DNA from: an uncultured Anaerolineales bacterium
Lineage (GTDB): Bacteria; Chloroflexota; Anaerolineae; Anaerolineales; UBA11858
Reading direction: 5' to 3'
Length of the DNA stretch: 64,000 nucleotides
NCBI GenBank assembly: GCA_964406305.1
Contig: CAYORF010000003.1
Coordinates: 1,583 to 65,582 of the forward strand
Positions 22,403 to 36,403 of this stretch are shown piece after piece. Under the pieces are notes generated by a model. That model saw only the letters and a program-made list of their open reading frames with translations. It did no database searches and was not told the origin of the DNA. Both the position numbers and the translations under genes were made by a program. Position 1 is the first letter of the stretch, and the number at the start of each line of letters is the position of its first letter.

Positions 22403-23227
22403 CTACAGGGAGAGGAGAGTTCCCTTATCCTGACCTAATAGTGCTTCTGATATGCTGCCAGGTTCCTCTCCGGAGAAGATTAGACACGCTAATTCAGGGA
22501 TATCCTCGATCAGGTTCAACATCTGTTCAACTTTATCTACCATTCCGCCAGTGACGTCCGGCGCTTGTGATTGGCTGACTGTCCCACCAAGAGTGCTTCG
22601 GTCTGCGGGCCGGATCTTATCATAGAGGCTGGTGCACTCGGGGAAATCCCGCCAGACGCCCGGGTACTGGCCGGCCAGTAAGATCCGAACTGGTTCAAGA
22701 TTTCTTGCTAAATGCACAAATAGATCTTCGGTTGATAGGATTGTGCCGCCAATGCTGGAATCAAAGACCACATCTCCAAATACAACTGGCAGAAGGCCTT
22801 TATCCAATGTGGACCGGATAGGTCTCAGATCCCAGGAAGTTATCTCCCTGTTGGAAGAGAATACTGTTGATGATGGTGGGAATGCCACAGGGGAGAGGCC
22901 GGCATCCTTTAAGGCCTTTATAACCAGCTGGTTGAGGGACGCTGCATCATACCAGACCTCTGCAAACCCCAACCAATCCTCCTGGCTGGATACACCACCT
23001 CTGGTTTCATATTTTTTACCAGAAAAATGCCCGAAAGAACCTGAACCGTGTCCGAGAAGAATCTGCAGGGATGAATCCTGCTCCAGGGCGGATTTGATCT
23101 CTACCCCAACCCGTTGAAGGACCTCCATCCGGGCAGTTCGGGGAGTATTTTTATCGGTGATCAGGGATCCGCCGAGTTTTAGAAATACCAGCTTCTTTCC
23201 CATATGTGACCTTTCGGGATTATCCAT
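22403..23227 (-). CDS. Isopentenyl phosphate kinase (amino-acid-kinase fold)
   Basis: VFLKLGGSLITDK and GHGSGSFGH match the IPK signatures recalled from archaeal and Chloroflexi enzymes. Confidence 0.8.
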   Translation of the reverse strand: MDNPERSHMGKKLVFLKLGGSLITDKNTPRTARMEVLQRVGVEIKSALEQDSSLQILLGHGSGSFGHFSGKKYETRGGVSSQEDWLGFAEVWYDAASLNQLVIKALKDAGLSPVAFPPSSTVFSSNREITSWDLRPIRSTLDKGLLPVVFGDVVFDSSIGGTILSTEDLFVHLARNLEPVRILLAGQYPGVWRDFPECTSLYDKIRPADRSTLGGTVSQSQAPDVTGGMVDKVEQMLNLIEDIPELACLIFSGEEPGSISEALLGQDKGTLLSL

Positions 23228-23271
23228 GGAAGTATTGTAGTCAGGGCTTGTTTTAGGGTCAAGAGAGAGAA

Positions 23272-23297
23272 ACAGGGCTGAGAATTCCCAGCCCTGT
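23272..23297. terminator. GC-rich hairpin between the UbiA-family gene and the IPK gene
   Basis: ACAGGGCUG (23272-23280) pairs with CAGCCCUGU (23289-23297). T/C-rich tracts lie on both sides, so orientation and function are uncertain. Confidence 0.4.
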
Positions 23298-23332
23298 CTT
23301 TTCCTTTGTTTTTGATCAGATCCAGATCTGGT

Positions 23333-24346
23333 TTAGATCCAGAATCCAGGCCAAATCAGTTTTACTATTGTATCCAGAATGACAGCGATGAGGAATAGAC
23401 CCCCAAAGCGCCGGGTGTGATGAAAGGCGGCAGCGACGTAATAATTTGGCCAGACATCCGGGAAATCTTCCGGTTTTTCGGCTGGTTTGGGATTGGAAAG
23501 AATAGGCCAGATCTCAACCAGGGTTGGGATTGCCAGCAGAGTGAGAAGCATGACCGGGGTAAAAAAGCGGGTCCATACTAGGTATATAACGATCACGTAA
23601 GCCAGGATCAAAAAAGCAGTCATAAACCAGCGGGCGAGTTTCTCGCCCAGAACAACTGGCAAGGTATAGATCTTGAGATCTTTATCCTGAGTGAGTTTAT
23701 CTATGTGTTTTCCGAACAACATCGATGTGACTCCGACCCCGTGCGGCAAACTGGCCAGAGCGATTGTCCAATCCCATGGCAAACCTGTGATCACGTAATA
23801 TCCGCCAGCTATCATCAGTGGGCCCCAGACCAGGAATACTGTCAGCTCACCCAGGGCGATATATTTCAGTGGGTAGGTATAAAAGAGCACAAAAAGTGCT
23901 CCCACACCCATCAGGATCCAGGTACCTTCACCTCGCATTATCCCTAGCGCGATCCCGCAAGCGGCAGCAATAGCTCCGGTCACCCCGGCATAGGTCAGGA
24001 GTTCTTTTTTGGTCATCAATCCATGTAATAGAGGTTGGGGACCATATTGGGCCCGGTAGTAGTTATCGACATCCACTCCCCTGACAAAATCTGTGTAGTC
24101 ATTCAGGAAGTTATTTGTTCCATGGGCCAGGTACAAACCAACGGTGACCAGAACCCAGCGCCAGAAATCAAAAGCCCCAACTCTAATTGCAAAAATACCT
24201 GCAAATGCAGCTGACAAGAACGTAGTCACTAGGACAGCTGCTCTGGTAGCAATCAGCCAGCGAGAGATCAGATCTAATTCATCCCATTCTTCTTTGGTGA
24301 TCTTGGGAATAATCTGCAATGCTTTTCGCCACATTGAAAAATTCAT
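23333..24346 (-). CDS. UbiA-family aromatic/polyprenyl prenyltransferase (MenA-like)
   Basis: Polytopic protein with the first Asp-rich motif NNFLNDYTDFVRGVD (NxxxDxxxD type). The substrate cannot be assigned from sequence. Confidence 0.65.
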   Translation of the reverse strand: MNFSMWRKALQIIPKITKEEWDELDLISRWLIATRAAVLVTTFLSAAFAGIFAIRVGAFDFWRWVLVTVGLYLAHGTNNFLNDYTDFVRGVDVDNYYRAQYGPQPLLHGLMTKKELLTYAGVTGAIAAACGIALGIMRGEGTWILMGVGALFVLFYTYPLKYIALGELTVFLVWGPLMIAGGYYVITGLPWDWTIALASLPHGVGVTSMLFGKHIDKLTQDKDLKIYTLPVVLGEKLARWFMTAFLILAYVIVIYLVWTRFFTPVMLLTLLAIPTLVEIWPILSNPKPAEKPEDFPDVWPNYYVAAAFHHTRRFGGLFLIAVILDTIVKLIWPGFWI

Positions 24347-24453
24347 ACTGATTTAATCTCCTTCTACTAATAATTTTCCCCCATATCATACCACAGGGCT
24401 TTTTGTCCAGATCAGTGCGGAAAATACCGGCAATGTAGGCCAGATCGGGAAAT

Positions 24454-25410
24454 TTATCTGTTAAAATCCCGGTTTGTAACCGGTGTGATCAGGGTGGAAA
24501 TTGCGCCCTTCTTTTCCAATTCCCCGCTGATATAGTCAATGTTTGAATTGACCAGTGCAATGATGTGGCCTCCAAGGCCTCCGCCGGACAGCTTGGCGCC
24601 CAAAGCACCAGCATCTCTTGCTTCTAGAACCAGCTGGTCCAATTCAGGGATTGAGACTCCAATTTCCTGCAGCAGCTCGTGGTTCTCGTTCATCAATGAC
24701 CCAAGATGATCCGGGTTTCCAGTTTCGATGATCACTTTGGCTTCTTGTGTGATCTCACCCATTCTTGAAAAGATCTGGTTATATCGATCTGGTTCTTTCT
24801 GCCATCTTTCCCGCACTCCCTCCACCGCCTCCCAGGTATTGCCTGGTATACCGGAGTAAGCTATCAGGACAGAAAATTCCTCACCGATCTCGAGGAATTC
24901 AACCGGGTTTCCCTTCCGATAATAGACTGGTTTCTGATAGGAGATAACCGTGTTATCAATACCTGATGGAGTGCCGTGGTGGATCTTTTCCACCTCATAA
25001 GCAAAGTCTGATACTTGTTCATCGTTCAGGCGTTTTCCTAAGAAGGCAGAAAAAGCCCGGATGATGGATATTGAAATGGCGGCGCTGGAACCCATACCAG
25101 AGGAAGGGGGTATCTCTGAAGTGACCTGAATATTGCAGGAGGGAACTTGATTGAGGTCAATATCACCGATAACTAATTGGATGGTCGATCTCAATGGGTG
25201 GTTTATTTCAAGCTGGTCTATTGAAGTAGAGAGAGAAATGTCTGGCGCCTCTATCCAAATCTCTCCAGGGTTACCCTGGATGCGCGCGCTGACAATTGCT
25301 TTGGCTTGAGTAGGAAAAACCGGGGTTGCTATTGCCGGTTCCCCATATACAACAGCGTGTTCGCCAAAGAGAATGATCTTTCCAGGTGATGTAGCAGAAA
25401 ATGCAGGCAT
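24454..25410 (-). CDS. mvk: Mevalonate kinase (GHMP kinase)
   Basis: SPGKIILFGEHAVVYG, PPSSGMGSSAA and KLSGGGLGG are the three GHMP/MVK motifs. Confidence 0.8.
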   Translation of the reverse strand: MPAFSATSPGKIILFGEHAVVYGEPAIATPVFPTQAKAIVSARIQGNPGEIWIEAPDISLSTSIDQLEINHPLRSTIQLVIGDIDLNQVPSCNIQVTSEIPPSSGMGSSAAISISIIRAFSAFLGKRLNDEQVSDFAYEVEKIHHGTPSGIDNTVISYQKPVYYRKGNPVEFLEIGEEFSVLIAYSGIPGNTWEAVEGVRERWQKEPDRYNQIFSRMGEITQEAKVIIETGNPDHLGSLMNENHELLQEIGVSIPELDQLVLEARDAGALGAKLSGGGLGGHIIALVNSNIDYISGELEKKGAISTLITPVTNRDFNR

Positions 25411-25413
25411 ATA

Positions 25414-26280
25414 TTAGAAGAAATAAAAAACCATCATTACAACCATTGACCAAAGCAAAATGGCTGCTTGCAGCGGTCGGTCATACAGGGCGATATCTTC
25501 CGGGGCGCCGCCTTTTCCGGCCTGGATCAGGTACAGATATCGAAAGATGCCGTATAAAACAAATGGAATTGTCAGCATCATGGAATGATTGTCGGGCAGA
25601 TTTGGCGCAGAAAATGTATAGAGGCTGTACGAGACAATTGTCGTTCCAGACACGATGACAATTAGCTGGTCGAGTAATTCAATCGTATAACCTTCAAGTA
25701 CTGGGCGGACTTTTCCCCCGTTATCATACTGCAATACCAGCTCAGCTCGTCGTTTTCCAAAGCCGATAAAGAGAGCAAATAATGAAGTGACCACGTATAA
25801 CCAGGGTGAAAAACGCCTTACTTCGATCAAGGTAGTTCCAGCGATGACACGCAGCAAATAGAAAGATGCCAGAACGAGCACATCGATCAGTGGAATGTGC
25901 TTTAGTTTGGCAGAATACAACATGTTGAGGATAAAATAAACCAGGCAGATCGCCATAAATGCGGGGTCCAGGAGAAATGCCAGAGGGAACGCAATTAATA
26001 ATAGAACGATAGCAGCTGCCCAGGCTGCTTTTAGAGGAAGCTTCCCGGATGCTATTGGGCGGTTCTTTTTTGTAGGGTGATGTTTGTCAGATTCACAGTC
26101 AGCGATATCATTAAAGATATATACTGCACTGGCGATCAGACTGAAAATGGCCGCTCCTGCCAGTGTGGTCAGGAAGGCGGGAATATCCGTCAGTTTTCGG
26201 TCAAAAACCAGAGCTGTAAAGATGAAGATATTTTTTGACCATTGTTTAGGGCGCATGGTTTTCAGTAAAGACATTATCAT
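25414..26280 (-). CDS. UbiA-family polyprenyl-phosphate phosphoribosyltransferase-like enzyme (decaprenyl-phosphate 5-phosphoribosyltransferase family)
   Basis: YIFNDIADCESDKHHPTKKNRPIASGKL matches the NDxxDxxxD...HPTKxxRPIAxG signature I recall for the Rv3806c/DPPR-synthase family. Its stop lies 3 nt from the mvk start. Confidence 0.7.
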   Translation of the reverse strand: MIMSLLKTMRPKQWSKNIFIFTALVFDRKLTDIPAFLTTLAGAAIFSLIASAVYIFNDIADCESDKHHPTKKNRPIASGKLPLKAAWAAAIVLLLIAFPLAFLLDPAFMAICLVYFILNMLYSAKLKHIPLIDVLVLASFYLLRVIAGTTLIEVRRFSPWLYVVTSLFALFIGFGKRRAELVLQYDNGGKVRPVLEGYTIELLDQLIVIVSGTTIVSYSLYTFSAPNLPDNHSMMLTIPFVLYGIFRYLYLIQAGKGGAPEDIALYDRPLQAAILLWSMVVMMVFYFF

Positions 26281-26356
26281 AAGGAAATAATAGCATGAAT
26301 CAATTGGATGGGGGAGGGATGGTTCCAGTACTGGGCAAGGGATGTTAAAATAGATT

Positions 26357-27160: not shown

Positions 27161-28432
27161 ATGAAAAAACATTCTCCTCAAATCATCAGAGACAGCATGT
27201 TCTACCGCTTTTCTCTATATGGATTTTTAAAGAACCTCAGATTCTTTGACCCATTTATCCTGTTGATATTTCGTTCCTACGGCCTGTCGTTTTTACAGAT
27301 AGGCATTCTGTACTCCATCCGAGATATTGCAACCAACTTATTAGAACTCCCTACCGGGCTGTTGGCGGATTCCTTTGGAAGAAGAAGAGCCATGGTTTCT
27401 GCTTTCATATCGTACATTGTGTCATTTGTGATCTTGTATTCCCAAAAGGGTTTTGGTTTTTTATCCTTGGCTATGATAATTTTTGCTTTTGGAGATGCTT
27501 TCCGGACTGGGACTCATAAAGCACTGATCCTGGAATATCTGAGGATCAATAACATCAGTGACCTAAAAGTTGCCTATTATGGATTAACACGCAGCGCTTC
27601 CCAGTTGGGTTCTGCCTTGAATTCATTGATTGCGGCCGGCCTGGTATTTTACACGGGCAGCTACAGGATCATGTTTCTGGCATCAACAGTTCCTTATACC
27701 CTGGATCTGATAAACCTGGCAACCTATCCAAAAGAACTGGATGGTGAGATCACTCGGGTCAAGGGAAAGGAGATCTGGTCCAGATTTGATTCAACTCTGA
27801 AAGGGTTCTTTAAAACAATGAAGGATGGGAACGCCCAAAAAGTGATCCTGAACAGCGCCAGTTTTACAGCAGCATTTAAATCAACAAAAGATTATTTGCA
27901 GCCCATGATATCTGGCATCGCATTATCCCTGATGCTCTTTACTGTCTTGGAAGAGACCCGCCGGGAAGCACTTCTGATCGGGTTGGTCTACTTTGTGATC
28001 TATTTATTGACGAGCTTGGCTTCCAGGCGGGCTTATTATTTCAGCAACCGGTTCAAAAATCTGCCCCGGGCAGTAAACATCACCTATCTTGTAGGTATTG
28101 GATTGTTGATCGCTGCCGGATGGATGGCGACAGTAGGCCTGGAGCTGATCGCGGTGATATGTTTTATCGGAATATTCTTGTTGAATAATATCCGGCGACC
28201 GATCAATATCGGCATCATCAGTGACCAGATCTCATCCAAGGTGATGGCTTCGGGTTTATCTACTGAAACCTTACTAACAACCATGTTCTCAGCCCTGTTT
28301 GCACCATTGTTGGGTTTTTTGGTAGACACTTTCGGTCTGGGATATGGTATTTCCGGGATGGGCCTGGTGATGGTGCTGTTGTTTTTTGTTGTCAGAGTGG
28401 GGGAAAATGATAATCAGCTACCAGCAAACTAA
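27161..28432 (+). CDS. MFS transporter
   Basis: About 12 hydrophobic segments and the MFS loop motif LADSFGRRRAM. Confidence 0.7.
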   Translation: MKKHSPQIIRDSMFYRFSLYGFLKNLRFFDPFILLIFRSYGLSFLQIGILYSIRDIATNLLELPTGLLADSFGRRRAMVSAFISYIVSFVILYSQKGFGFLSLAMIIFAFGDAFRTGTHKALILEYLRINNISDLKVAYYGLTRSASQLGSALNSLIAAGLVFYTGSYRIMFLASTVPYTLDLINLATYPKELDGEITRVKGKEIWSRFDSTLKGFFKTMKDGNAQKVILNSASFTAAFKSTKDYLQPMISGIALSLMLFTVLEETRREALLIGLVYFVIYLLTSLASRRAYYFSNRFKNLPRAVNITYLVGIGLLIAAGWMATVGLELIAVICFIGIFLLNNIRRPINIGIISDQISSKVMASGLSTETLLTTMFSALFAPLLGFLVDTFGLGYGISGMGLVMVLLFFVVRVGENDNQLPAN

Positions 28433-28473: not shown

Positions 28474-30276
28474 ATGGATATTAATAAAATACGCAACTTT
28501 TCTATCATAGCCCATATTGACCACGGGAAATCCACTCTTGCAGATCGACTGCTGCAGATCACGGATACTGTCTCTGAGCGCGATATGGCGGACCAGGTTC
28601 TAGATAATATGGATCTGGAACGCGAAAAAGGTGTGACCATCAAAGCTTCCGCAGTTCAAATGCATTATGAATCTCTTGACGGTCAGGAATATGAATTGAA
28701 CCTGATCGATACTCCAGGCCATGTTGATTTTGGATATGAAGTATCGAGGGCTTTGGAAGCTTGTGAAGGCGCGCTGCTTGTGGTTGACGCGGCCCAGGGT
28801 ATGGAGGCTCAAACATTAGCCAATATGTATGCAGCCCTGGAAGCAGACTTGGAAATCATTCCCATTATCAATAAGATCGATCTGCCTGCCGCCAGGCCGG
28901 ATGAAATTGCCGAAGATATCAGCGCCTTATTGGGCACTCCCCCGGAGACAATTCTCCGCATCTCAGCCAAGGAAGGGGAAAATATCCAACCAGTTCTAGA
29001 GAAGATCATCCAGGAGGTACCTGCTCCGACCCACAACCCGGATGCGCCCTTACAAGCCCTGATATTTGACTCTCATTACAATTCCTTTAAAGGTGTGATC
29101 GCCTATATCCGGGTTTTCGATGGGACCATCACCGGCAAAGATATCCTGCGATTGATGGCCGCAGGCAAGGACCTTGAACCATTTGAGATTGGTGTATTCT
29201 CCCCAAAAATGACCCCAGTCGATGTGATTTATCCCGGGGAAGTTGGATATATAGCAACGGGTTTGAAATCTGTTCATGAATGCCGGGTAGGGGATACGAT
29301 CACATTTGCCAAAAATCCTGCCTCGGAACCCCTGCCTGGATATAAACAGGCCAAACCGATGGTTTTTGCCGGTTTTTTCCCGGTAGATAATGAGGCTTAT
29401 GCCAGCTTGAGGGACGCGCTGGAAAAATTACAATTGAATGATGCCGCCCTGGTCTTTGAACCCGAATCTTCCCAAGCTCTGAACCTGGGTTTCAGGTGTG
29501 GATTCCTGGGCATGTTCCATATGGAGATTATCCAGGAAAGGCTCGAACGGGAATATAATCTAGATATCATAGCGACTGCTCCTTCTGTCAAATATCGGAT
29601 AGTGATGAGAGATGGATCGGTCCTCGAGATCGATTCGCCGGCAGAATTACCAGATAAAAGTGAGTATGAAGAGATCCAGGAACCCTGGATGGACCTTCAG
29701 GTTTTCCTGCCGTTGGAATACTATGGCCCGGTAATGGAATTGGTCACCGTAAGGCGGGGAACATATGTCAGTCAGCAATATCCAAGCCCTCAACGGGTTC
29801 AACTGAATTTCCAAATTCCGCTTTCGGAGATGATCGTGGATTTCTTTGATTATCTGAAATCTGTATCGCGAGGTTACGCCTCAATGGATTATTCTTTTGC
29901 TGGATATCGGAGCGAGAAGCTGGTCAAGCTTGATATCCTGGTCAATAGTGAACCGGTAGATGGTATGGCCTCCATTGTCCATAAAGATAAGGCCCAACGT
30001 AAAGGGAAGATTCTGGTTGCGCGTTTGAAGGAATTGATCCCCCGCCAACACTTCGCAGTGCCCATTCAAGCTTCAGCGGGTGGGAAGATCATTGCAAGAG
30101 CTGATGTGAAAGCTCTCCGGAAAGATGTTACAGCTAAGCTCTATGGTGGTGACGTTACTCGAAAACGAAAATTGCTCGAAAATCAGAAAGATGGAAGGAA
30201 GCGGCTAAAGCGAGTTGGGAATGTAGATATTCCCCAAGATGCCTTTATGGCTGTCTTGAGGTTGGAAGATGACTGA
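28474..30276 (+). CDS. lepA: Translation elongation factor 4 (LepA)
   Basis: NFSIIAHIDHGKSTLADR, DTPGHVDF and NKIDL, plus a LepA-specific C-terminal domain. Confidence 0.95.
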   Translation: MDINKIRNFSIIAHIDHGKSTLADRLLQITDTVSERDMADQVLDNMDLEREKGVTIKASAVQMHYESLDGQEYELNLIDTPGHVDFGYEVSRALEACEGALLVVDAAQGMEAQTLANMYAALEADLEIIPIINKIDLPAARPDEIAEDISALLGTPPETILRISAKEGENIQPVLEKIIQEVPAPTHNPDAPLQALIFDSHYNSFKGVIAYIRVFDGTITGKDILRLMAAGKDLEPFEIGVFSPKMTPVDVIYPGEVGYIATGLKSVHECRVGDTITFAKNPASEPLPGYKQAKPMVFAGFFPVDNEAYASLRDALEKLQLNDAALVFEPESSQALNLGFRCGFLGMFHMEIIQERLEREYNLDIIATAPSVKYRIVMRDGSVLEIDSPAELPDKSEYEEIQEPWMDLQVFLPLEYYGPVMELVTVRRGTYVSQQYPSPQRVQLNFQIPLSEMIVDFFDYLKSVSRGYASMDYSFAGYRSEKLVKLDILVNSEPVDGMASIVHKDKAQRKGKILVARLKELIPRQHFAVPIQASAGGKIIARADVKALRKDVTAKLYGGDVTRKRKLLENQKDGRKRLKRVGNVDIPQDAFMAVLRLEDD

Positions 30277-31276
30277 TAATAACAAAACCGGGAAGCAGTT
30301 AAGATTTGTCATCGGAATAGTGTTAAGCCTTGTTGTCCTGGTCGTCATGATCTTGTTCATTGACGGGGAAGAGGTGGCAGCCGCTTTCAAGCAAGTCAAT
30401 ATTCTGATCGTAGCTCCGTTATCGTTTTTGTTAGTTTTTGCCCTGCTGTGCCGGGCCTACGCTTGGCGGATAATCCTGAATGAAAAAGTCTCCCTTTCTC
30501 AATCTTTCTTGATCATTAGTGCCGGCTATTTTGTGAATACCATCCTTCCTTTCAGGGTAGGAGAGCTCGCCAGAGTGTTTTTATTACTTCCATCGGGCTT
30601 TAGTTTTTGGAGTGCTATACCAACAATCCTGGTAGAACGGATCTTTGATCTTGGTTTTGCTCTCAGCCTGTTTTTTATTGGCTTACCATTTGCCCTGGAT
30701 TTCTCTCAGGATATATTTACCCTCTATCTTTTGGCAGGATTTGCCGTGTTGGGGATAGTCATTTTGATCCTGTTAGTCAAGAACAAGGAAAAAGTATATC
30801 GGTGGCTAGAAAATCTAAACCTTCTTGGAAGTCGGTTCAAATCCGGGTTGATTGACCTTGTGCGTTCGGTTCTCTCCAGTCTAGAGACTCTCTCTGATCC
30901 GCTAAAATTCGCCAAAGTATTCATTGGAATGGTCCTCAGTTGGGGGCTATCACTGATATTTCAATATCTTTTACTGAAGGCCTTTATCCCGGAAGCAAAC
31001 CTGATCATGGCCGTATTCGCCATTGGGGCTGTTGCAATTGGCATATCTATCCCCTCATCCCCTGGTAACATTGGTTTATATGAAGCAAGTATCACCCTTG
31101 CCTTAACAGCTTTCGGGGTAGATCGATCAATCGCGTTCAGCTATGCCTTGACCAGTCACGTATTAAACCTTGCTGTGACTACAATATTTGGATCATTTGG
31201 GCTGGTGAGGGAAGGATACAGTTTGCGTGATGTCTGGCAGTATAGCAAACAGCACAGAGAGGAAGGTGATTCATGA
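30269..31276 (+). CDS. Flippase-like UPF0104 membrane protein (lysyl-PG-synthase TM-domain family)
   Basis: Polytopic protein with the family-typical ILPFRVGELARV. Its start overlaps the lepA stop by 8 nt. Confidence 0.7.
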   Translation: MTDNNKTGKQLRFVIGIVLSLVVLVVMILFIDGEEVAAAFKQVNILIVAPLSFLLVFALLCRAYAWRIILNEKVSLSQSFLIISAGYFVNTILPFRVGELARVFLLLPSGFSFWSAIPTILVERIFDLGFALSLFFIGLPFALDFSQDIFTLYLLAGFAVLGIVILILLVKNKEKVYRWLENLNLLGSRFKSGLIDLVRSVLSSLETLSDPLKFAKVFIGMVLSWGLSLIFQYLLLKAFIPEANLIMAVFAIGAVAIGISIPSSPGNIGLYEASITLALTAFGVDRSIAFSYALTSHVLNLAVTTIFGSFGLVREGYSLRDVWQYSKQHREEGDS

Positions 31277-32298
31277 GTAAACCAATCCTTATCACGGGTG
31301 GCGCAGGTTTCATCGGGACCAACTATACTGCTCGTTTGATCGAGAGGGGCGAGCATCCCACTATCTTTGATAACCTATCCCGGACTGGTACGCCTGGCAA
31401 TGTTCAATGGCTTAGTGATACTTACGGTGCGGATTCGTTTGAAATGATCGAAGGAGATATCAGGGACCCTGATGCAGTATCCTCGGTCATCCAGGGAGCT
31501 GAATTGGTTTTTCATTTGGCTGCCCAGGTTGCGGTGACGACTTCAGTGATCGATCCCAGGACGGACTTTGAGATCAATGCTCTTGGTACTTTGAACGTCT
31601 TGGAAGCAGCCAGGCTTTCTTCTCTTAAACCGGCGGTAATTTATTCATCTACTAATAAGGTTTATGGAGACCTGGAAGGTGTAGAAGTGGTCGAAGGGGA
31701 AGATAGCTATTATTTTCCTGATCATCCTGATGGAATCGCTGAATTCCAACAAATGGATTTCCACTCACCTTATGGATGTTCCAAAGGGGCCGGTGATCAG
31801 TATGTCAGGGATTATCATCGAATATTTGGTTTACCAACCGTGGTTTTCCGCCAAAGCTGTATTTATGGACCCCACCAGTATGGAATTGAAGACCAGGGTT
31901 GGGTCGCCTGGTTTGTGATCGCGGCGGTGACAGGAAAACCTATTACTATTTATGGTGACGGTAAACAGGTCAGAGACCTTTTATTTGTGGATGATCTATT
32001 GGTAGCTTATGACCTGGCAGCCGAAAACATTGATAAGACCGCAGGACAAATATATAATATTGGAGGCGGCCAAGAGAATACGCTGTCCATTTGGAAGGAA
32101 TTTGGACCGTTGTTGGAAAAGGAGCTTGGTCAGGATATACCTGTCTCATGGGAGGGTTGGAGGCCGGGAGATCAGCGGGTTTTTGTTGCTGATATACAGA
32201 AAGCTGCCCGTGATTTTGGCTGGAAGCCGGAGATCGGTGTTGAATCGGGTATCCAAAAGCTATTTGAATGGGTAAGAGCTAACCGGGATCTGTTTTAG
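31273..32298 (+). CDS. NAD-dependent sugar epimerase/dehydratase (extended SDR)
   Basis: ILITGGAGFIGTN Rossmann motif and catalytic YGCSKGAGDQY (YxxxK). It shares a 4-nt ATGA overlap with the upstream gene. Confidence 0.85.
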   Translation: MSKPILITGGAGFIGTNYTARLIERGEHPTIFDNLSRTGTPGNVQWLSDTYGADSFEMIEGDIRDPDAVSSVIQGAELVFHLAAQVAVTTSVIDPRTDFEINALGTLNVLEAARLSSLKPAVIYSSTNKVYGDLEGVEVVEGEDSYYFPDHPDGIAEFQQMDFHSPYGCSKGAGDQYVRDYHRIFGLPTVVFRQSCIYGPHQYGIEDQGWVAWFVIAAVTGKPITIYGDGKQVRDLLFVDDLLVAYDLAAENIDKTAGQIYNIGGGQENTLSIWKEFGPLLEKELGQDIPVSWEGWRPGDQRVFVADIQKAARDFGWKPEIGVESGIQKLFEWVRANRDLF

Positions 32299-32339: not shown

Positions 32340-33503
32340 ATGAAGATACTTACTGTTCTCACATATTACCGGCCCCACACCAGTGGGCTAACGATATACG
32401 TGGAGCGATTGGCAAAATCTCTTGTTAAGCTGGGACATGAAGTTACGGTGCTGACTTCCCAGTATGATAAAAGCCTGCCCCAAGAAGAAATCCGGGATGG
32501 CGTCAAGATCATTCGAGCCCCGGTATTGTTCCGGATTAGCAAGGGTGTGATCATGCCTACTATTGGCTGGCTGGCCTGGAAACTTGTCTCAAGCCATGAC
32601 GTAGTTCATCTGCACCTTCCCCAATTTGATGCCGCCGGTATTGCTCTGCGGGGACGAATCCTCAAGAAACCAACTCTGATCACATATCATTGTGATCTGC
32701 TGCTCCCCAAGTCCTTCTTCAACAGGATTATCAATTCAGTAGTACTTTTTATGAATTATTTGGCCGGATTGCTGGCAGACAGGATTGGCGCTTATACGGA
32801 TGATTTTGCGGCCCATTCTCCATTCTTACAGCGCTTCAAAAGAAAAGTACGGGTGATACTTCCCCCTGTGGTTATGCCTGCAGCGGCTCCTGATGTTATC
32901 AAGGAATATATCAGTACGATCAATCCCAAGGGAAATTCACCAGTTATTGGGATGGCTACCCGGTTTGCATCAGAAAAAGGAGTGGGGATTTTAATCAGTG
33001 CCCTGCCAGATGTTATGGAATCTTTTCCCCGAGCCATGGTTTTGTACGCCGGTCAATACCAGGATGTGATGGGTGAAAATACTTATTATCAGAAACTATT
33101 GCCAAGCATCCAGTCATACCAGGAAAAAGGACAATGGAATTTCCTGGGAGTGTTAACACCGGAAGAGATGACCCTTTTTTATAACTGCCTTGATGTGCTG
33201 GTTGTCCCCAGCCTTAATTCCACAGAGACCTTCGGCCTAGTACAGATCGAAGCCATGCTTCAGGGCACTCCCACGATCGCATCTAACCTGCCTGGTGTGA
33301 GGGTTCCACCCCAGTTGACTGGGATGGGTGAGGTAGTTCCAATTGGAGATGCCGCCGCTTTAGCAAAGGCGATCATAAAAATAGTGTCACAACCAGAGAA
33401 ATACCAGGGATCACAGGAAGAAATAAAGAATACTTTTGATCCCATGGTTAACGCTGCTGCTTATGAAACGATTTACAAAGAATTATGTGGGGATCTGTCT
33501 TGA
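32340..33503 (+). CDS. Glycosyltransferase family 4 (GT-B, retaining type)
   Basis: N-terminal MKILTVLTYYRPHTSGL and C-terminal ...PSLNSTETFGLVQIEAM (E-x7-E region). Confidence 0.8.
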   Translation: MKILTVLTYYRPHTSGLTIYVERLAKSLVKLGHEVTVLTSQYDKSLPQEEIRDGVKIIRAPVLFRISKGVIMPTIGWLAWKLVSSHDVVHLHLPQFDAAGIALRGRILKKPTLITYHCDLLLPKSFFNRIINSVVLFMNYLAGLLADRIGAYTDDFAAHSPFLQRFKRKVRVILPPVVMPAAAPDVIKEYISTINPKGNSPVIGMATRFASEKGVGILISALPDVMESFPRAMVLYAGQYQDVMGENTYYQKLLPSIQSYQEKGQWNFLGVLTPEEMTLFYNCLDVLVVPSLNSTETFGLVQIEAMLQGTPTIASNLPGVRVPPQLTGMGEVVPIGDAAALAKAIIKIVSQPEKYQGSQEEIKNTFDPMVNAAAYETIYKELCGDLS

Positions 33504-34285
33504 ATGATTATCTAACACCTCATTTGCGAGACCTTCCTTATTTCCGGGCCTTACTGCGAGCGGTGGAGGCTCGTTTTTATGAGGATATCTCTCTGCCGGG
33601 GCCTGTCCTGGATTTAGGCTGTGGGGATGGTCATTTTGCGAGCCTGGCTTTTCAGGAACCGCTGGATATGGGTTTGGATCCCTGGTGGGGACCTATCCAG
33701 GAAGCAGGGACCAGATCATCCTACCAAGATTTGGTATGCGCAGAAGGTGACCATATGCCTTATCCTTCCGATTATTTTTCCAGCGCTGTCAGCAATTCTG
33801 TGTTGGAACATATCCCTGATCTGGATCCCGTCATCAAGGAAACTGCCCGGGTGCTGAAACCAGGAGCCCCTTTCATTTTTTGTGTACCAAATCACCGGTT
33901 CCTAAGTACTCTATCGATTAGCAATGGATTGGACAAGATCAAGTTAAGGGGATTAGCAGATCTATATCGGGGTTTTTTTAATCGCATCTCCCGGCATTAT
34001 AATTGTGATTCCTACGAAACATGGAAAGAAAGACTGAAAAAATTTGGCTTTATGATTGAGGACTCGTGGGATTATTTTCCTCCTGCTGCCTTGCATGTCC
34101 TGGAATGGGGCCATTATTTTGGTGTGCCATCCTGGGTTGCAAAACTTATCTTTGGCCGCTGGATCCTGACTCCCACACGCTGGAATTTGTACCTAACCGA
34201 TCGTCTTGTCAGACCGCACTATGAAAGTGACCCAAGAAGCCCGGATGGTGTATATTCATTTTATATAGCTAGACGGATTGAATGA
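33485..34285 (+). CDS. Class I SAM-dependent methyltransferase
   Basis: VLDLGCGDGH (motif I) and LKPGAPFIF (post-II). An alternative TTG start at 33500 overlaps the GT4 stop. Confidence 0.8.
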   Translation: MWGSVLNDYLTPHLRDLPYFRALLRAVEARFYEDISLPGPVLDLGCGDGHFASLAFQEPLDMGLDPWWGPIQEAGTRSSYQDLVCAEGDHMPYPSDYFSSAVSNSVLEHIPDLDPVIKETARVLKPGAPFIFCVPNHRFLSTLSISNGLDKIKLRGLADLYRGFFNRISRHYNCDSYETWKERLKKFGFMIEDSWDYFPPAALHVLEWGHYFGVPSWVAKLIFGRWILTPTRWNLYLTDRLVRPHYESDPRSPDGVYSFYIARRIE

Positions 34286-34312: not shown

Positions 34313-36403
34313 ATGGAAGAACCAAGTGTCCTTGATTACGTATTAGAGAAACTGACATTCTGGCGCAAAGGCAGCCTGGTGATTCCTCCTGCAGAACAGG
34401 GACCAGAACTGGTTAAGCCAACACAACCAAGAAGTGAGTACGATAGGGGTTCTTGGAAAAAATACCTGGTTTTTCTGCCAACATTATTTGCGATTATTGC
34501 CCAGATATTTGGCGAACCTGAAAATCGCTCCTCGGCCTTGATGATATTCTTTTATGCGGCAGCCGGGATAGGATTGCTGTTGCTGATCATATTTAAGAAC
34601 TGGGAGCTGGATACTCTTGTTCCTGATGAAGGAGAAGCGAGTGGTTTTTCAGTTCGCTGGATTCCGTTCCTGGTTGGCATTGGTTTTTCATCCCTGGCTT
34701 TTTTCTTTTTTACCGGTAATTTATTCAACTTCATAAATGTCACCCTCTGGATCGCAGGATTTGGATTGATCTGGTGGTCCCTCCGAATCCCTGAAGACTG
34801 GCAGGGAAAACTCAAATCTATCTGGCACAAATTCGTTACTGATGGGTTCAATGTCACTCCCTGGATGGTCTTGGTAGCTGCTGTGTTTTTGCTGGCGGGG
34901 TTTTATAGATTTTACTTACTGAACCAGGTACCACCAGAAATGTTCAGTGATCATGCGGAAAAACTGATTGATGTCACAGATGTGCTTCGAGGGAACACCT
35001 TTATATTCTTCCAGCGCAATACGGGACGGGAAGCGTTACAGATGTATCTGACCGCAGCCATGGCGAAGATCTTTGGCACTGGATTATCTTTTCTAAGTCT
35101 AAAATTGGGCACATGTTTGGCAGGTCTATTTTCCCTTCCATTTATTTATCTGCTTGGCAAGGAAATAAAGAATAAGGAAGTTGGCCTTTTGGCTATGTTC
35201 TTTGCCGGTATTGCATACTGGCCTAATGTGATTTCGAGGGTAGCCTTACGTTTTGCTCTTTATCCGGCGTTCTTAGCACCAACGATCTTTTTCCTGGTCC
35301 GCGGTATCAAAAGGAAAAAGTGGAATGATTTCCTTTATGCCGGTCTTTTTTTAGGGATCGGCCTCCATGGTTATAGTCCCTTCCGAATAGTTCCTTTTGC
35401 AGTGGTCCTGATCCTGCTGATCTATTTTTTGCATACAAAATCAAAGGATAATCGCCGCCTGGCTGTGATTGCCCTGCTGCTGGTGGGTTTGATTTCTTTG
35501 ATCGTGTTTCTACCTCTGGGGAGGTACGCTTCAATAAATTATTCATCGTTTGCTTACCGGATGCAATCCCGGATGACAGACTTGGAAACCGCTTTGCCAG
35601 GTTCTGTCCTGGCTATATTCTTTTCTAATCTTTGGAAAGCGTTGATTATGTTCCAATGGGATAATGGCCAGATCTGGGTTCATTCAGTTCCGGGTCGGCC
35701 GGCACTGGGTGTGATTTCAGCAGCGATGTTGAGTCTAGGTGTGATCTTGTTGGTGATTCGATATATAAAGAAACGGAATTGGATGGACCTGGTCTTGTTA
35801 TTGTTGATCCCATTGTTATTGTTGCCTTCTGTTCTCTCAATTGCCTTCCCTGATGAGAATCCTTCCCTGAATCGCTCAGGCGGAGCAATTATTCCGGTTT
35901 TTATCATCATTGCCATCGCCATAGAGAATCTTGTTATCAACCTTAGATCAAATATCACTGGTAGGGCAGGGAAGTGGATCTCAACGGGTATGGTTATGGT
36001 TCTAGCTGGATTTAGCATGCAAACTAATGCAAAGCTTGTATTTGTGGATTATTATCAGCAGTTCAAGTCCAGAGCCTGGAATACTTCTGAGATTGGGGCA
36101 GTGATCGAAGAGTTTGCTGACACGATCGGTGATGAAGACCATGCCTGGGTGGTTCCCTACCCTCATTGGGTAGACACACGCCTGGTGGGTATCCATGTTG
36201 TAGACCAGGTAAGAGATTTTGCCCTTTGGCAGAAAGATATCTTGGGCACAGAAATGGCAGCAGCTCCCAAACTTTACATATTCAAACCAGTCGATGAGGA
36301 AACTTACCAGATCCTGCGAGACTTATACCCTGATGGTATTATTGAGAAGTTTGAATCTGAGGTTGAAGGCCGTGATTTCATGCTTTATTATGTGCTGCAG
36401 TAA
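34313..36403 (+). CDS. Large polytopic membrane protein, ArnT/PMT (GT39/GT-C)-like
   Basis: 696 aa with more than 12 hydrophobic segments. The segment ...FYRFYLLNQVPPEMFSDHAEKLID...FGTGLSFLSLKLGTCLAGLFSLPFIYLLGKE... resembles PMT_2-type GT-C N-domains. The C-terminal 120 aa are soluble. Confidence 0.55.
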   Translation: MEEPSVLDYVLEKLTFWRKGSLVIPPAEQGPELVKPTQPRSEYDRGSWKKYLVFLPTLFAIIAQIFGEPENRSSALMIFFYAAAGIGLLLLIIFKNWELDTLVPDEGEASGFSVRWIPFLVGIGFSSLAFFFFTGNLFNFINVTLWIAGFGLIWWSLRIPEDWQGKLKSIWHKFVTDGFNVTPWMVLVAAVFLLAGFYRFYLLNQVPPEMFSDHAEKLIDVTDVLRGNTFIFFQRNTGREALQMYLTAAMAKIFGTGLSFLSLKLGTCLAGLFSLPFIYLLGKEIKNKEVGLLAMFFAGIAYWPNVISRVALRFALYPAFLAPTIFFLVRGIKRKKWNDFLYAGLFLGIGLHGYSPFRIVPFAVVLILLIYFLHTKSKDNRRLAVIALLLVGLISLIVFLPLGRYASINYSSFAYRMQSRMTDLETALPGSVLAIFFSNLWKALIMFQWDNGQIWVHSVPGRPALGVISAAMLSLGVILLVIRYIKKRNWMDLVLLLLIPLLLLPSVLSIAFPDENPSLNRSGGAIIPVFIIIAIAIENLVINLRSNITGRAGKWISTGMVMVLAGFSMQTNAKLVFVDYYQQFKSRAWNTSEIGAVIEEFADTIGDEDHAWVVPYPHWVDTRLVGIHVVDQVRDFALWQKDILGTEMAAAPKLYIFKPVDEETYQILRDLYPDGIIEKFESEVEGRDFMLYYVLQ

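What the first reader, a model, noticed from the sequence alone, without database searches (positions are those of the whole stretch)
25414..26280. DPPR-synthase-like UbiA enzyme: a possible source of a polyprenyl-phospho-pentose donor for the GT-C cluster
**What the sequence shows.** The 288-aa UbiA-family protein carries NDIADCESDKHHPTKKNRPIASG.

**Established knowledge (from memory).** This matches the signature I recall for decaprenyl-phosphate 5-phosphoribosyltransferase (M. tuberculosis Rv3806c). That enzyme makes the lipid-linked ribose precursor of decaprenyl-phospho-arabinose, and only GT-C arabinosyltransferases use that donor.

**Inference.** The gene lies 4 kb from a cluster of GT-C-like proteins, in a window that also encodes a GDP-mannose pyrophosphorylase (14058-15149) and an LCP ligase (58983-60023). 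This hints that the organism uses polyprenyl-phospho-sugar donors for an extracytoplasmic polymer, analogous to but distinct from the actinobacterial arabinan pathway. No DprE1/DprE2 homologues are visible in this window.
Basis: partly seen in the sequence, partly recalled or inferred. Interest (0 to 1): 0.55.

Follow-up and report, generated by a model that had tools for sequence, protein, structure and literature searches.

The report
Lipid-linked phosphoribose synthase in an Anaerolineae genome
This gene encodes a membrane enzyme of the well-known mycobacterial Rv3806c type, which loads phosphoribose from PRPP onto a polyprenyl-phosphate carrier; it is a routine member of a very large family, though in this bacterial group it is fused into an operon with mevalonate kinase and sits near a cluster of GT-C glycosyltransferases that may use its product.

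Summary
**Observation:** confirmed. The 288-aa ORF at 25414-26280 (minus strand) carries the quoted motif.

**Enzyme identity:** a polyprenyl-phosphate 5-phosphoribosyltransferase (PPPRS, the DPPR-synthase family).
- It passes two curated NCBIfam equivalog cut-offs.
- It aligns end to end with solved M. tuberculosis Rv3806c (E 5e-45).
- It keeps 12 of 13 substrate-contact residues.
- NCBI already gives this name to 76-90%-identical Anaerolineales proteins.

the gene ends 3 nt before mevalonate kinase. This pairing holds in 53 of 55 relatives at ≥55% identity.

**Link to the GT-C cluster:** plausible but unproven.
- For:
  - The glycan module is nearby in 8/8 close relatives.
  - It stays next to PPPRS through four rearrangements.
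  - PPPRS co-clusters with PMT/GT39-type GT-C enzymes and LPG_synthase_TM proteins in haloarchaea, Bacteroidota and other bacteria.
  - A confident model shows the DUF2298/YYY proteins have a GT-C fold.
- Against:
  - The module lies on the opposite strand, beyond TlyA, MFS and LepA.
  - It is missing near PPPRS in about half of more distant Anaerolineae.
  - The window holds no phosphatase and no DprE1/E2.

**Verdict:** new member of a known kind; modest interest.

The parts
25414..26280 (-). Polyprenyl-phosphate 5-phosphoribosyltransferase (PPPRS, DPPR-synthase family, UbiA superfamily), 288 aa
   Evidence: - NCBIfam NF008977 259 bits (cut-off 234) and NF008978 244 bits (cut-off 207).
- Rv3806c (PDB 8j8j) E 4.7e-45, full length, 35% identity.
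- 12 of 13 substrate-contact residues kept, and these are near-invariant across 154 family members.
24454..25410 (-). Mevalonate kinase; starts 3 nt after the PPPRS stop
   Evidence: - TIGR00549 274 bits (cut-off 163).
- Directly downstream of PPPRS in 53/55 loci at >=55% identity, median gap 3 nt.
23333..24346 (-). Second UbiA-family prenyltransferase, MenA/UBIAD1-like; present only in the closest relatives
   Evidence: - Pfam UbiA 1.3e-28.
- MenA-type NCBIfam models all below cut-off.
- Best solved relative is human UBIAD1, E 2.7e-10.
- Found only in L001-L007, L055 and L056.
23270..23299 (.). Palindromic terminator-like hairpin (13-bp stem) between UbiA2 and IPK; a promoter-like site lies at 23262-23234 (minus strand)
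   Evidence: Consensus scan only. It suggests two transcription units, PPPRS-MVK-UbiA2 and IPK onward. This is inferred, not shown.
22403..23227 (-). Isopentenyl phosphate kinase (alternative mevalonate pathway)
   Evidence: - NF040647 175 bits (cut-off 120).
- Follows MVK in 36 of the 134 loci scanned.
26281..26356 (.). 76-nt divergent intergenic region between PPPRS and TlyA, the first gene of the plus-strand array
   Evidence: - Coordinates.
- The divergent TlyA|PPPRS arrangement is conserved in Anaerolineae.
- Promoter-like matches in the scanned region are no more frequent than in shuffled sequence.
30269..31276 (+). LPG_synthase_TM 'flippase-like' membrane protein; first gene of the glycan module and a candidate lipid-linked sugar flippase
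   Evidence: - PF03706 4e-44; TIGR00374 68 bits (cut-off 43).
- The same Pfam family sits directly after PPPRS in L049 and in three haloarchaea.
- The window protein is only 22-26% identical to those.
31273..32298 (+). TyvE-like SDR (sugar-nucleotide C2-epimerase type)
   Evidence: - PDB 9rl0 CDP-tyvelose 2-epimerase E 4.5e-103; 48% identity.
- T124/N125/K126, Y164, K168, Q205 and W207 equivalents are kept.
32340..33503 (+). GT4 (GT-B, nucleotide-sugar dependent) glycosyltransferase
   Evidence: Pfam Glycos_transf_1 and Glyco_transf_4.
33485..34285 (+). SAM-dependent methyltransferase
   Evidence: Pfam Methyltransf_23/11.
34313..36403 (+). PMT_2-family GT-C glycosyltransferase, 696 aa
   Evidence: - PF13231 49.7 bits (cut-off 26.1).
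- About 12 hydrophobic segments.
- No PDB sequence hit.
36422..41236 (+). 1604-aa fusion of an N-terminal PMT_2 GT-C module and a C-terminal DUF2298/YYY module
   Evidence: PF13231 40.6 bits and PF10060 357 bits; TIGR03662 504 bits.
41245..43719 (+). DUF2298/YYY protein, 824 aa, predicted GT-C fold
   Evidence: - PF10060 358 bits.
- AF2 model pLDDT 87.4, pTM 0.92.
- Foldseek top hits are DPY19, STT3 and AftA, probability 1.00, E 2.6e-6 to 1e-3, TM 0.3-0.47.
43757..45472 (+). Polytopic membrane protein, distantly Agl23-like
   Evidence: - TIGR03663 E 2.5e-12, but 46.6 bits is below the 126 cut-off.
- No Pfam hit.
- About 10 hydrophobic segments.

Best explanation
The gene encodes a polyprenyl-phosphate 5-phosphoribosyltransferase.

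**Reaction (inferred from homology).** On the cytoplasmic face of the membrane it takes PRPP and a polyprenyl monophosphate. One Mg2+ is held by N57 and D61, and a Lys/Arg cluster (R10, K71, R74, K127) holds the pyrophosphate. The enzyme transfers 5-phosphoribose to the lipid phosphate, giving polyprenyl-P-5-phosphoribose.

**Downstream steps (inferred by analogy with characterised systems).** A phosphatase not encoded in the window would remove the 5-phosphate. The polyprenyl-P-ribofuranose, possibly epimerised, would be flipped outward. GT-C glycosyltransferases would then use it to add pentofuranose to an envelope glycan.

**Local context.** The gene is co-transcribed with mevalonate kinase, which ties donor synthesis to the supply of isoprenoid carrier. 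The most likely consumers are the PMT_2 and DUF2298/YYY GT-C proteins at 34313-43719, with the LPG_synthase_TM protein at 30269 as candidate flippase.

**My probabilities.** Enzyme chemistry about 0.85. Product serves as an extracytoplasmic GT-C donor about 0.7. This particular GT-C cluster is the consumer about 0.45. No DprE1/E2 is present and the protein falls in a non-DprE clade, so ribofuranose (or another non-DprE pentose) is more likely than arabinofuranose.
For: **Identity**
- Two NCBIfam equivalog models pass their cut-offs.
- Rv3806c matches at E 4.7e-45 over residues 2-281, against 1e-6 for the next UbiA subfamily.
- The residues shown by mutagenesis and cryo-EM to bind Mg2+, ribose, 5-phosphate, pyrophosphate and decaprenyl-P (PMC10994848) map to identical residues, except Q135>N119 and K208>P193. 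Both of those positions vary across the family, and N is the commonest residue at the first.
- The basic GKRRAEL segment stands where prenyltransferases have a second Asp-rich motif.

**MVK operon**
- The gap to MVK is 3 nt, and MVK is directly downstream in 53/55 loci at >=55% identity.

**GT-C link**
- The glycan module is nearby in 8/8 loci at >=70% identity and 11/23 at 55-70%.
- Four different arrangements keep it beside PPPRS: L022/L027, L094 and L105.
- PPPRS co-clusters with GT39/PMT-type GT-C enzymes and LPG_synthase_TM proteins in three haloarchaea. It co-clusters with GT39 enzymes in Chondrinema, and with an LPG_synthase_TM protein in L049.
- No other lipid-linked sugar synthase (GT2 Dpm1/GtrB type) is in the window.
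- The YYY protein has a GT-C fold.

**Precedent**
- Three-component pentofuranose systems (PMC11127046).
Against: - No enzyme assay exists for any Chloroflexota member.
- The window has no phosphoribose phosphatase (HAD, PAP2 or PHP), no DprE1/E2, and no MATE, GtrA or SMR flippase.
- The GT-C genes are 8 kb away on the other strand, beyond TlyA, MFS and LepA.
- The whole region is a long conserved block of housekeeping genes (RimM-DprA-ManC-TopA...GreA-HD-IPK-MVK-PPPRS|TlyA-LepA...). Proximity may therefore be inherited gene order rather than functional linkage.
- The module is absent within 6.5-10 kb in 12/23 loci at 55-70% identity and in 14/16 below 48%.
- The window's LPG_synthase_TM and SDR are only 22-27% identical to the PPPRS-linked subfamilies seen elsewhere.
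- The SDR looks like an ordinary CDP-hexose 2-epimerase.
- Dehalococcoidia relatives show no glycan partners at all.
Confidence: 0.7

Rival explanations
1. The enzyme is a genuine PPPRS, but its product is used by glycosyltransferases encoded elsewhere in the genome, or for another lipid-linked purpose. On this view the nearby GT-C cluster uses a different donor (for example polyprenyl-P-hexose made by a GT2 elsewhere, or a lipid-PP-oligosaccharide, as STT3/AglB-like enzymes do), and the proximity is inherited synteny.
For: - The region is a long housekeeping synteny block.
- The module is absent near PPPRS in about half of the 55-70% identity loci and in nearly all more distant ones.
- The YYY fold is closest to DPY19 and STT3, which use Dol-P-Man or lipid-linked oligosaccharide.
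- The window's LPG_synthase_TM and SDR are not orthologues of the tightly PPPRS-linked partners.
- The only universal partners are MVK and TlyA.
Against: - Four independent rearrangements keep the module within two genes of PPPRS.
- PPPRS recurrently co-clusters with GT39/PMT_2 enzymes in other phyla and in archaea.
- No alternative lipid-sugar synthase is encoded in the 64 kb.
Confidence: 0.3
2. The organism runs a full mycobacterial-type pathway to polyprenyl-P-arabinofuranose, with DprE1/DprE2-like epimerase genes and a phosphatase located outside the window.
For: - Relatives at 39-40% identity sit beside DprE1-like FAD oxidases and DprE2-like SDRs: L049, Flammeovirgaceae and Chondrinema plasmids.
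- The whole genome could not be searched.
Against: - No DprE1/E2-like gene is in the 64-kb window.
- A DprE1-like profile found none in the flanks of any Chloroflexota locus; its only hit was L049 itself.
- The rough tree places the MVK-linked Chloroflexota clade away from the DprE-linked members (no support values).
- The GT-Cs here are PMT_2/DUF2298, not Emb/Aft-type families.
Confidence: 0.12
3. The protein is an ordinary UbiA-type prenyltransferase working in isoprenoid, quinone or lipid synthesis, as its operon with MVK, a MenA-like UbiA and IPK, and JGI's label '4-hydroxybenzoate polyprenyltransferase', might suggest.
For: - The operon context with mevalonate-pathway genes and a second UbiA enzyme.
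- JGI names for close homologues.
Against: - All other UbiA subfamily models score 63 bits or less and far below their cut-offs, against 259 bits for the PPPRS model.
- The second Asp-rich motif needed to bind a prenyl diphosphate through a second Mg2+ is replaced by the basic cluster typical of Rv3806c.
- PRPP-contact residues are invariant.
- Solved prenyltransferases match only at E 1e-6 or worse.
Confidence: 0.04

Closest known systems
M. tuberculosis Rv3806c (UbiA), decaprenyl-phosphate 5-phosphoribosyltransferase, EC 2.4.2.45; cryo-EM structures 8J8J/8J8K (Gao et al. 2024, PMC10994848)
   Same: - Full-length collinear homology (E 4.7e-45, 35% identity).
- The NDxxDxxxD Mg2+ motif.
- The Lys/Arg pyrophosphate cluster.
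- The 5-phosphate, ribose and lipid-phosphate contacts.
- Similar length (288 vs 302 aa), polytopic membrane protein.
   Different: - Not flanked by a PAP2 phosphatase (Rv3807c), DprE1/DprE2, or Emb/Aft arabinosyltransferases.
- Instead translationally coupled to mevalonate kinase.
- Q135 is N and K208 is P (both positions vary across the family).
- The lipid acceptor and the final sugar are unknown.
- Fails the strictest model NF008976 (186 bits against a 474 cut-off).
Three-component pentofuranose glycosylation systems: Citrobacter youngae ORF15 (PPPRS-PRP), ORF14 (MATE), ORF12 (GT136 GT-C), optional SDR epimerase ORF13 (Kelly et al. 2024, PMC11127046)
   Same: - The same logic: PRPP-derived polyprenyl-P-ribofuranose, a flippase, and an extracytoplasmic GT-C enzyme.
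- No DprE1/E2 is needed when ribofuranose is the sugar.
- An SDR and GT-C proteins are present in the neighbourhood.
   Different: - No fused or adjacent HAD phosphatase, and no MATE protein.
- The genes are not one contiguous cluster.
- The GT-Cs are PMT_2/DUF2298, and no relation to GT136 has been shown.
- The SDR here is TyvE-like (C2, sugar-nucleotide type), not the GalE-like ORF13.
- The gene looks like a core, vertically inherited gene in a housekeeping block, not an accessory serotype-modifying locus.
Haloarchaeal (Natrialbaceae) PPPRS-PHP-LPG_synthase_TM modules with a 363-aa SDR and GT39/'DolP-mannose mannosyltransferase' genes (annotated records NZ_CP149788.1, NZ_CP007056.1, NZ_CP099392.1; apparently uncharacterised)
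   Same: - PPPRS is 40-44% identical to the target, closer than Rv3806c.
- The same set of protein families as in the window: PPPRS, LPG_synthase_TM, NAD-dependent SDR, PMT-type GT-C.
   Different: - Tight clusters that include a PHP phosphoesterase, which the window lacks.
- Their SDR and LPG_synthase_TM belong to different subfamilies (23-27% and 22-26% identity to the window proteins).
- No MVK linkage.
From memory, not checked here: P. aeruginosa PA7 pilin arabinosylation genes and Azorhizobium NoeC
   Same: - The same enzyme family (39-40% identity).
- Co-occurrence with GT39-type GT-C enzymes (Chondrinema) or an LPG_synthase_TM protein (L049).
   Different: Those loci carry the FAD oxidase and SDR reductase pair needed for the ribose-to-arabinose 2-epimerisation. 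Neither the window nor any Chloroflexota locus examined does.

Membership tests
PPPRS / DPPR synthase (EC 2.4.2.45; NCBIfam NF008977, NF008978; within UbiA PF01040) | Scores above the curated equivalog cut-off of the family model | tested here: met
   - NF008977 259 bits vs 234; NF008978 244.3 vs 207.
- NF008976 (186 vs 474) and the HAD-fusion model NF006088 (185 vs 351) are not passed.
PPPRS / DPPR synthase | Full-length collinear homology to the experimentally characterised, structurally solved enzyme Rv3806c | tested here: met
   phmmer vs PDB: 8j8j E 4.7e-45, query residues 2-281 against chain residues 14-295; 35% identity.
PPPRS / DPPR synthase | Mg2+ and ribose site: N73 and D77 of the NDxxDxxxD motif | tested here: met
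   N57, D58, D61 and D65 are present. They are invariant in 153-154 of 154 family members.
PPPRS / DPPR synthase | Basic pyrophosphate-binding cluster (R22, K87, R90, K143, Y138) in place of the second Asp-rich motif of prenyltransferases | tested here: met
   - R10, K71, R74, K127 and Y122 are all present.
- The segment GKRRAEL aligns with Rv3806c GKRYAEL.
- The distinction is described in PMC10994848.
PPPRS / DPPR synthase | 5-phosphate/ribose contacts (K28, Y70, Y157, Q135) and polyprenyl-phosphate contacts (K28, Y157, K191) | tested here: met
   - K16, Y54, Y141 and K176 are identical.
- Q135 is N119, the commonest residue at that position in the family.
PPPRS / DPPR synthase | PRPP-dependent transfer of 5-phosphoribose to a polyprenyl phosphate | not testable with these tools
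   Needs a membrane assay with PRPP and farnesyl-, undecaprenyl- or decaprenyl-P.
Mycobacterial-type decaprenyl-P-arabinose (arabinan) pathway | DprE1 (FAD oxidase) and DprE2 (SDR reductase) for the 2-epimerisation | tested here: not met
   - None in the 64-kb window.
- A DprE1-like profile hit only L049 among the 134 loci scanned.
- The whole genome was not searchable.
Mycobacterial-type decaprenyl-P-arabinose (arabinan) pathway | Emb/Aft-family GT-C arabinosyltransferases and a PAP2 phosphatase (Rv3807c-like) | tested here: not met
   - The GT-Cs are PMT_2 and DUF2298.
- AftA is matched only at fold-class level (E 1e-3, TM 0.36-0.47).
- There is no PAP2 protein in the window.
Three-component pentofuranose systems (Kelly et al. 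2024) | PPPRS with a fused or adjacent phosphoribose phosphatase | tested here: not met
   - PPPRS is present, but no HAD, PAP2 or PHP protein is in the window.
- Such partners do occur beside homologues elsewhere: HAD in L049, PAP2 in L137, PHP in L120, L135, L138 and L139.
Three-component pentofuranose systems (Kelly et al. 2024) | Dedicated flippase in the cluster (MATE in the prototype) | tested here: inconclusive
   - No MATE, GtrA or SMR protein is present.
- An LPG_synthase_TM 'flippase-like' protein (TIGR00374 passes) heads the glycan module, but it is a distant relative of the PPPRS-adjacent ones.
- The MFS gene occurs only in the closest relatives.
Three-component pentofuranose systems (Kelly et al. 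2024) | GT-C glycosyltransferase of family GT136 that uses polyprenyl-P-pentofuranose | not tested
   - GT-C-type proteins are present (Pfam PMT_2; YYY fold).
- No GT136 sequence was available for comparison, and donor specificity cannot be read from sequence.
Canonical UbiA aromatic/lipid prenyltransferases (UbiA, MenA, heme O synthase, ChlG, DGGGP synthase) | Passes a subfamily model, and has a second Asp-rich motif for the prenyl-diphosphate Mg2+ | tested here: not met
   - The best such model scores 63 bits against a cut-off of 269.
- The second motif is replaced by a basic cluster.

The most novel reading that the evidence does not exclude
Anaerolineae, and perhaps Chloroflexota more widely, build a core, housekeeping-linked envelope glycan from polyprenyl-P-pentofuranose (probably ribofuranose, since no DprE1/E2 is seen). 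On this reading:
- donor synthesis is transcriptionally welded to the mevalonate pathway through the PPPRS-MVK operon;
- an LPG_synthase_TM protein acts as the flippase;
- the uncharacterised DUF2298/'YYY' proteins are a new GT-C family that uses this donor.

That would make it a monoderm-Chloroflexota counterpart of the mycobacterial arabinan logic, and the first function for DUF2298.
Probability: 0.3. Interest if true: 0.6.

Novelty: new member of a known kind. Interest (0 to 1): 0.35.

Why it matters
**If the enzyme does what its sequence says,** Anaerolineae make a lipid-linked pentofuranose donor. These are abundant but little-studied filamentous bacteria of sludge, sediments and hot springs. 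A pentofuranose donor would point to a pentofuranose-containing envelope polymer that nobody has described chemically.

**Two by-products may be more useful than the finding itself.**
1. The PPPRS-mevalonate kinase operon is near-universal in the class. It is a clean marker and hints at coupling between carrier-lipid supply and glycan-donor synthesis.
2. The fold evidence that DUF2298/YYY proteins are GT-C glycosyltransferases, together with the recurrent PPPRS + LPG_synthase_TM + SDR + GT39 modules in haloarchaea and bacteria, extends the 'three-component' pentofuranose concept. It adds new flippase (LPG_synthase_TM) and phosphatase (PHP) partners, and extends the concept to archaea.

**The core annotation itself is routine.** NCBI's pipeline already assigns this name to close homologues.

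Tried and rejected
1. **TyvE-like SDR as a substitute for DprE1/E2.** I asked whether the SDR at 31273-32298 might perform the C2 epimerisation of lipid-linked ribose to arabinose.
   - It is 48% identical to the CDP-glucose/CDP-tyvelose 2-epimerase TaTyvE and keeps its catalytic and sugar-pocket residues.
   - The SDRs that sit tightly with PPPRS elsewhere (L110, haloarchaea) belong to a different subfamily.
   - It is therefore most simply a sugar-nucleotide epimerase feeding the GT4. Rejected as the main reading, though not excluded.
2. **MFS gene (27161-28432) as flippase.** It is present only in the closest relatives, so it is unlikely to be a conserved pathway part.
3. **Source contig.** The exact protein is not on record.
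4. **PDB sequence searches** for the four GT-C-type proteins and the LPG_synthase_TM protein gave nothing. Structure prediction was needed for YYY.
5. **First family alignment (A1)** was too diverse to give search patterns. A narrower one (A2) worked.
6. **Promoter consensus scan.** Matches were no more frequent than in shuffled sequence, so operon boundaries rest on gene spacing and synteny.
7. **Dehalococcoidia relatives.** PPPRS is followed by a Fer4/CCG protein, Uma2 and a CoA-transferase, with no pathway clue.
8. **Literature.** Nothing on Chloroflexi plus DprE1 or on Anaerolineae plus MVK/IPK, and nothing useful on DUF2298. The Ubi-297 paper only lists DPPRS as a separate UbiA group.
9. 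**Whole-genome search for DprE1/E2 or a phosphatase** in the source organism was not possible. Only one genome-collection scan is allowed, and loci are limited to 10-kb flanks.
Full report
**1. The observation**

The ORF is real. The ORF listing gives 25414..26280 on the minus strand, ATG start, 288 aa, and the quoted motif NDIADCESDKHHPTKKNRPIASG is at residues 57-79. Pfam places it in UbiA (E 1.3e-23).

- 14058-15149 is a ManC-type guanylyltransferase.
- 58983-60023 (minus strand) is an LCP protein.
- After scanning every ORF of at least 150 aa, I found no DprE1/DprE2-like protein in the window.

One imprecision: the glycan module begins 4.0 kb away, but the first GT-C gene is 8.0 kb away, on the opposite strand.

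**2. What the protein is**

Three independent lines place it in the DPPR-synthase (PPPRS) subfamily.

- **Curated models.** It clears the cut-offs of two NCBIfam equivalog models named 'decaprenyl-phosphate phosphoribosyltransferase' (259 vs 234 bits; 244 vs 207). Every other UbiA subfamily model scores 63 bits or less, far below cut-off.
- **Solved structure.** Against all PDB sequences, the best match is M. tuberculosis Rv3806c (8J8J) at E 4.7e-45. It is collinear over residues 2-281, at 35% identity. The next UbiA enzyme scores 1e-6.
- **Functional residues.** The Rv3806c paper (PMC10994848) identifies by structure and mutagenesis the residues that bind each ligand:

| Ligand | Rv3806c residues |
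|---|---|
| Mg2+ | N73, D77 |
| Ribose | N73, Q135 |
| 5-phosphate | K28, Y70, Y157 |
| Pyrophosphate | R22, K87, R90, K143, Y138, K208 |
| Decaprenyl phosphate | K28, Y157, K191 |

Twelve of the 13 are identical in the target. Q135 is N119 and K208 is P193. In an alignment of 154 diverse family members, the conserved positions are near-invariant. The two differing positions vary across the family, and N is the commonest residue at the first.

The basic segment GKRRAEL stands where true prenyltransferases carry a second Asp-rich motif. The paper singles out exactly this feature as separating the phosphoribosyltransferase from UbiA prenyltransferases.

It is also not new. The family has 2,326 clusters at 50% identity with E of 1e-30 or better. 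NCBI already names 76-90%-identical Anaerolineales MAG proteins 'decaprenyl-phosphate phosphoribosyltransferase'.

**3.

The PPPRS stop is 3 nt from the start of a mevalonate kinase gene (TIGR00549 passes). After that come:
- a MenA/UBIAD1-like second UbiA gene;
- a terminator-like hairpin;
- an isopentenyl phosphate kinase gene (NF040647 passes).

I fetched 54 loci from species-representative genomes and 80 from metagenomes.

| Identity to target | MVK directly downstream | Glycan-module gene within the flank |
|---|---|---|
| ≥70% | 11/11 | 8/8 |
| 55-70% | 42/44 | 11/23 |
| 48-55% | 4/11 | 1/2 |
| <48% | 2/26 | 2/16 |

The median stop-to-start gap between PPPRS and MVK is 3 nt (n = 64). TlyA is the conserved divergent neighbour. 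The second UbiA gene occurs only in the closest relatives.

So in Anaerolineae the tightest partner of this enzyme is the isoprenoid-precursor pathway. I read this as coupling between carrier-lipid supply and donor synthesis. That is an inference.

**4. The GT-C cluster premise**

On the plus strand, starting 76 nt from the PPPRS start, runs a tightly packed array (gaps of -91 to 41 nt):

TlyA, MFS, LepA, LPG_synthase_TM 'flippase-like' protein, an SDR, GT4, methyltransferase, PMT_2 GT-C, a 1604-aa PMT_2+DUF2298 fusion, a DUF2298/YYY protein, an Agl23-like membrane protein, Cmk, PlsC.

- Two proteins pass Pfam PMT_2.
- DUF2298 had no known fold and no PDB sequence match. I modelled the 824-aa YYY protein with a 58-sequence alignment (pLDDT 87.4, pTM 0.92).
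- Its best Foldseek matches are all GT-C enzymes: DPY19, STT3 and AftA at probability 1.00 (E 2.6e-6 to 1e-3), and the AglB C-terminal domain. TM-scores are modest (0.3-0.47), so this is fold-class evidence only.

The 'GT-C cluster' premise is therefore sound.

**5. Is PPPRS functionally tied to that cluster?**

*For:*
- The module is nearby in all close relatives (table above).
- Four different arrangements keep it within two genes of PPPRS:
  - L022 and L027: GT4 abuts TlyA.
  - L094: LPG_synthase_TM abuts TlyA.
  - L105: the order is PPPRS, radical-SAM, G5/3D, LPG_synthase_TM, TyvE-like SDR, GT4, MT, all co-directional and without MVK.
- The window encodes no other lipid-linked sugar synthase.
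- Family-wide, the same kinds of partners recur in unrelated lineages:
  - L049: DprE1-like, DprE2-like, HAD, PPPRS, LPG_synthase_TM in one run.
  - Three haloarchaeal megaplasmids: PPPRS-PHP-LPG_synthase_TM with a 363-aa SDR and GT39/'DolP-mannose mannosyltransferase' genes. The order is rearranged in Natronococcus.
  - Chondrinema: PPPRS-DprE1-like-DprE2-like with GT39 and DUF2723 genes.
  - Marivivens: EamA-GT4-PPPRS-PAP2.
  - Metagenome contigs: a small EamA/SMR transporter, a PHP protein, a GT2 or GT4 genes next to PPPRS.

*Against:*
- The Anaerolineae synteny is part of a long housekeeping block (RimM-DprA-ManC-TopA...GreA-HD-IPK-MVK-PPPRS|TlyA-LepA...). Proximity may simply be inherited.
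- About half of the 55-70% identity loci have unrelated genes upstream: a P-type ATPase, an MFS transporter, regulators.
- Dehalococcoidia show no glycan partners.
- The window's LPG_synthase_TM and SDR are only 22-27% identical to the subfamilies that sit tightly with PPPRS elsewhere.
- No phosphoribose phosphatase is in the window.

I put the specific link at about 0.45.

**6. Which sugar?**

- No DprE1/E2 is present in the window, and none lies near any Chloroflexota homologue.
- In a rough NJ tree without support values, the MVK-linked Chloroflexota clade lies away from the DprE-linked members.
- The window's SDR turned out to be TyvE-like, a C2-epimerase type (E 4.5e-103 to 9RL0, 48% identity). 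That briefly suggested a one-enzyme ribose-to-arabinose route.
- However, it keeps the sugar-nucleotide enzyme's signature residues (PMC13098431), and it is not the SDR subfamily linked to PPPRS elsewhere. It is most simply a CDP-hexose 2-epimerase serving the GT4.

Ribofuranose, used directly as in Citrobacter O1 (PMC11127046), is the simplest expectation. This is inference.

**7. Comparison with what is known**

- It works like Rv3806c and like the PPPRS of three-component pentofuranose systems, and it meets every sequence-testable membership criterion for that enzyme family.
- It is not a member of the mycobacterial arabinan pathway as a system. DprE1/E2, a PAP2 phosphatase and Emb/Aft enzymes were tested for and not found in the window.
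- It is not a contiguous three-component cluster: there is no phosphatase and no MATE protein, and the genes are split by housekeeping genes.

**8. Verdict**

- A correct identification of an ordinary, already auto-annotated enzyme: a new member of a known kind.
- The proposed link to the GT-C cluster is reasonable and somewhat strengthened, but unproven.
- Three side results carry more interest than the enzyme call itself:
  - the class-wide PPPRS-MVK operon;
  - the GT-C fold of DUF2298/YYY;
  - the cross-domain PPPRS + PHP/HAD/PAP2 + LPG_synthase_TM/EamA + SDR + GT39 modules.
- Interest 0.35.

Noticed in passing
window 22403-26280 (minus strand); loci L001-L036, L055-L108: A PPPRS-mevalonate kinase(-isopentenyl phosphate kinase) operon is near-universal in Anaerolineae: 53/55 loci at >=55% identity, median gap 3 nt. 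It persists to about 45% identity (L107, L108). I found no paper describing it.
   Followed up: yes
window 41245-43719 and 36422-41236: DUF2298 / TIGR03662 'Chlor_Arch_YYY' proteins, of unknown function, give a confident AF2 model whose best PDB fold matches are all GT-C glycosyltransferases (DPY19, STT3, AftA, AglB C-terminal domain). One copy is fused to a PMT_2 module in a 1604-aa protein.
   Followed up: yes
window 31273-32298: The SDR in the glycan module is a CDP-tyvelose 2-epimerase-like enzyme (48% identical to TaTyvE, catalytic and sugar-pocket residues kept). It is conserved in the Anaerolineae module at 46-52% identity to TaTyvE. Its natural substrate here is unknown.
   Followed up: partly
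L135 (NZ_CP149788.1), L138 (NZ_CP007056.1), L139 (NZ_CP099392.1); L110 5744-7855: Natrialbaceae haloarchaea carry PPPRS-PHP-LPG_synthase_TM modules with a 363-aa SDR and GT39-type GT-C genes. The SDR is 48-53% identical to one lying 22 nt upstream of PPPRS on bacterial contig L110. This is a cross-domain PPPRS-associated SDR subfamily and a candidate lipid-linked pentose epimerase.
   Followed up: partly
L049 7270-11859: An unclassified bacterium has a complete co-directional donor module: DprE1-like FAD oxidase, DprE2-like SDR, HAD phosphatase, PPPRS, LPG_synthase_TM. Its LPG_synthase_TM is 32-34% identical (E about 1e-40) to the haloarchaeal ones, which suggests a flippase type not among those described for these systems.
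   Followed up: partly
window 23333-24346 and 23234-23299: A MenA/UBIAD1-like second UbiA gene is inserted between MVK and IPK only in the closest relatives. It is followed by a 13-bp-stem palindromic terminator-like hairpin and a 10/12 promoter-like site just before IPK.
   Followed up: partly
L040-L048 (for example L040 11070-13166): In eight Dehalococcoidia genomes the PPPRS homologue is followed on the same strand by a roughly 700-aa protein with 4Fe-4S and CCG cysteine-rich domains, and no glycan genes are nearby. The role of PPPRS there is unexplained.
   Followed up: no
window 11036-11896: The ribosomal protein S16 ORF is 286 aa, about three times the usual length. Its C-terminal extension matches an E3-binding domain and a proline/acidic repeat region.
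   Followed up: no
window 15171-17501: Topoisomerase I carries an N-terminal DUF5679 domain ahead of the Toprim domain.
   Followed up: no
phage collection record MT837543.1 (6.6 kb, human faecal sample), 4874-5749: A short, unannotated phage-collection record encodes a 36%-identical PPPRS homologue. This fits the phage-borne pentofuranose systems mentioned by Kelly et al. 2024.
   Followed up: no
L001 3978-4929 and 13056-13863: In the closest genome locus (94% identity), the SDR and IPK genes each appear split into two ORFs. These are probably frameshift errors in that long-read MAG assembly rather than real pseudogenes.
   Followed up: no
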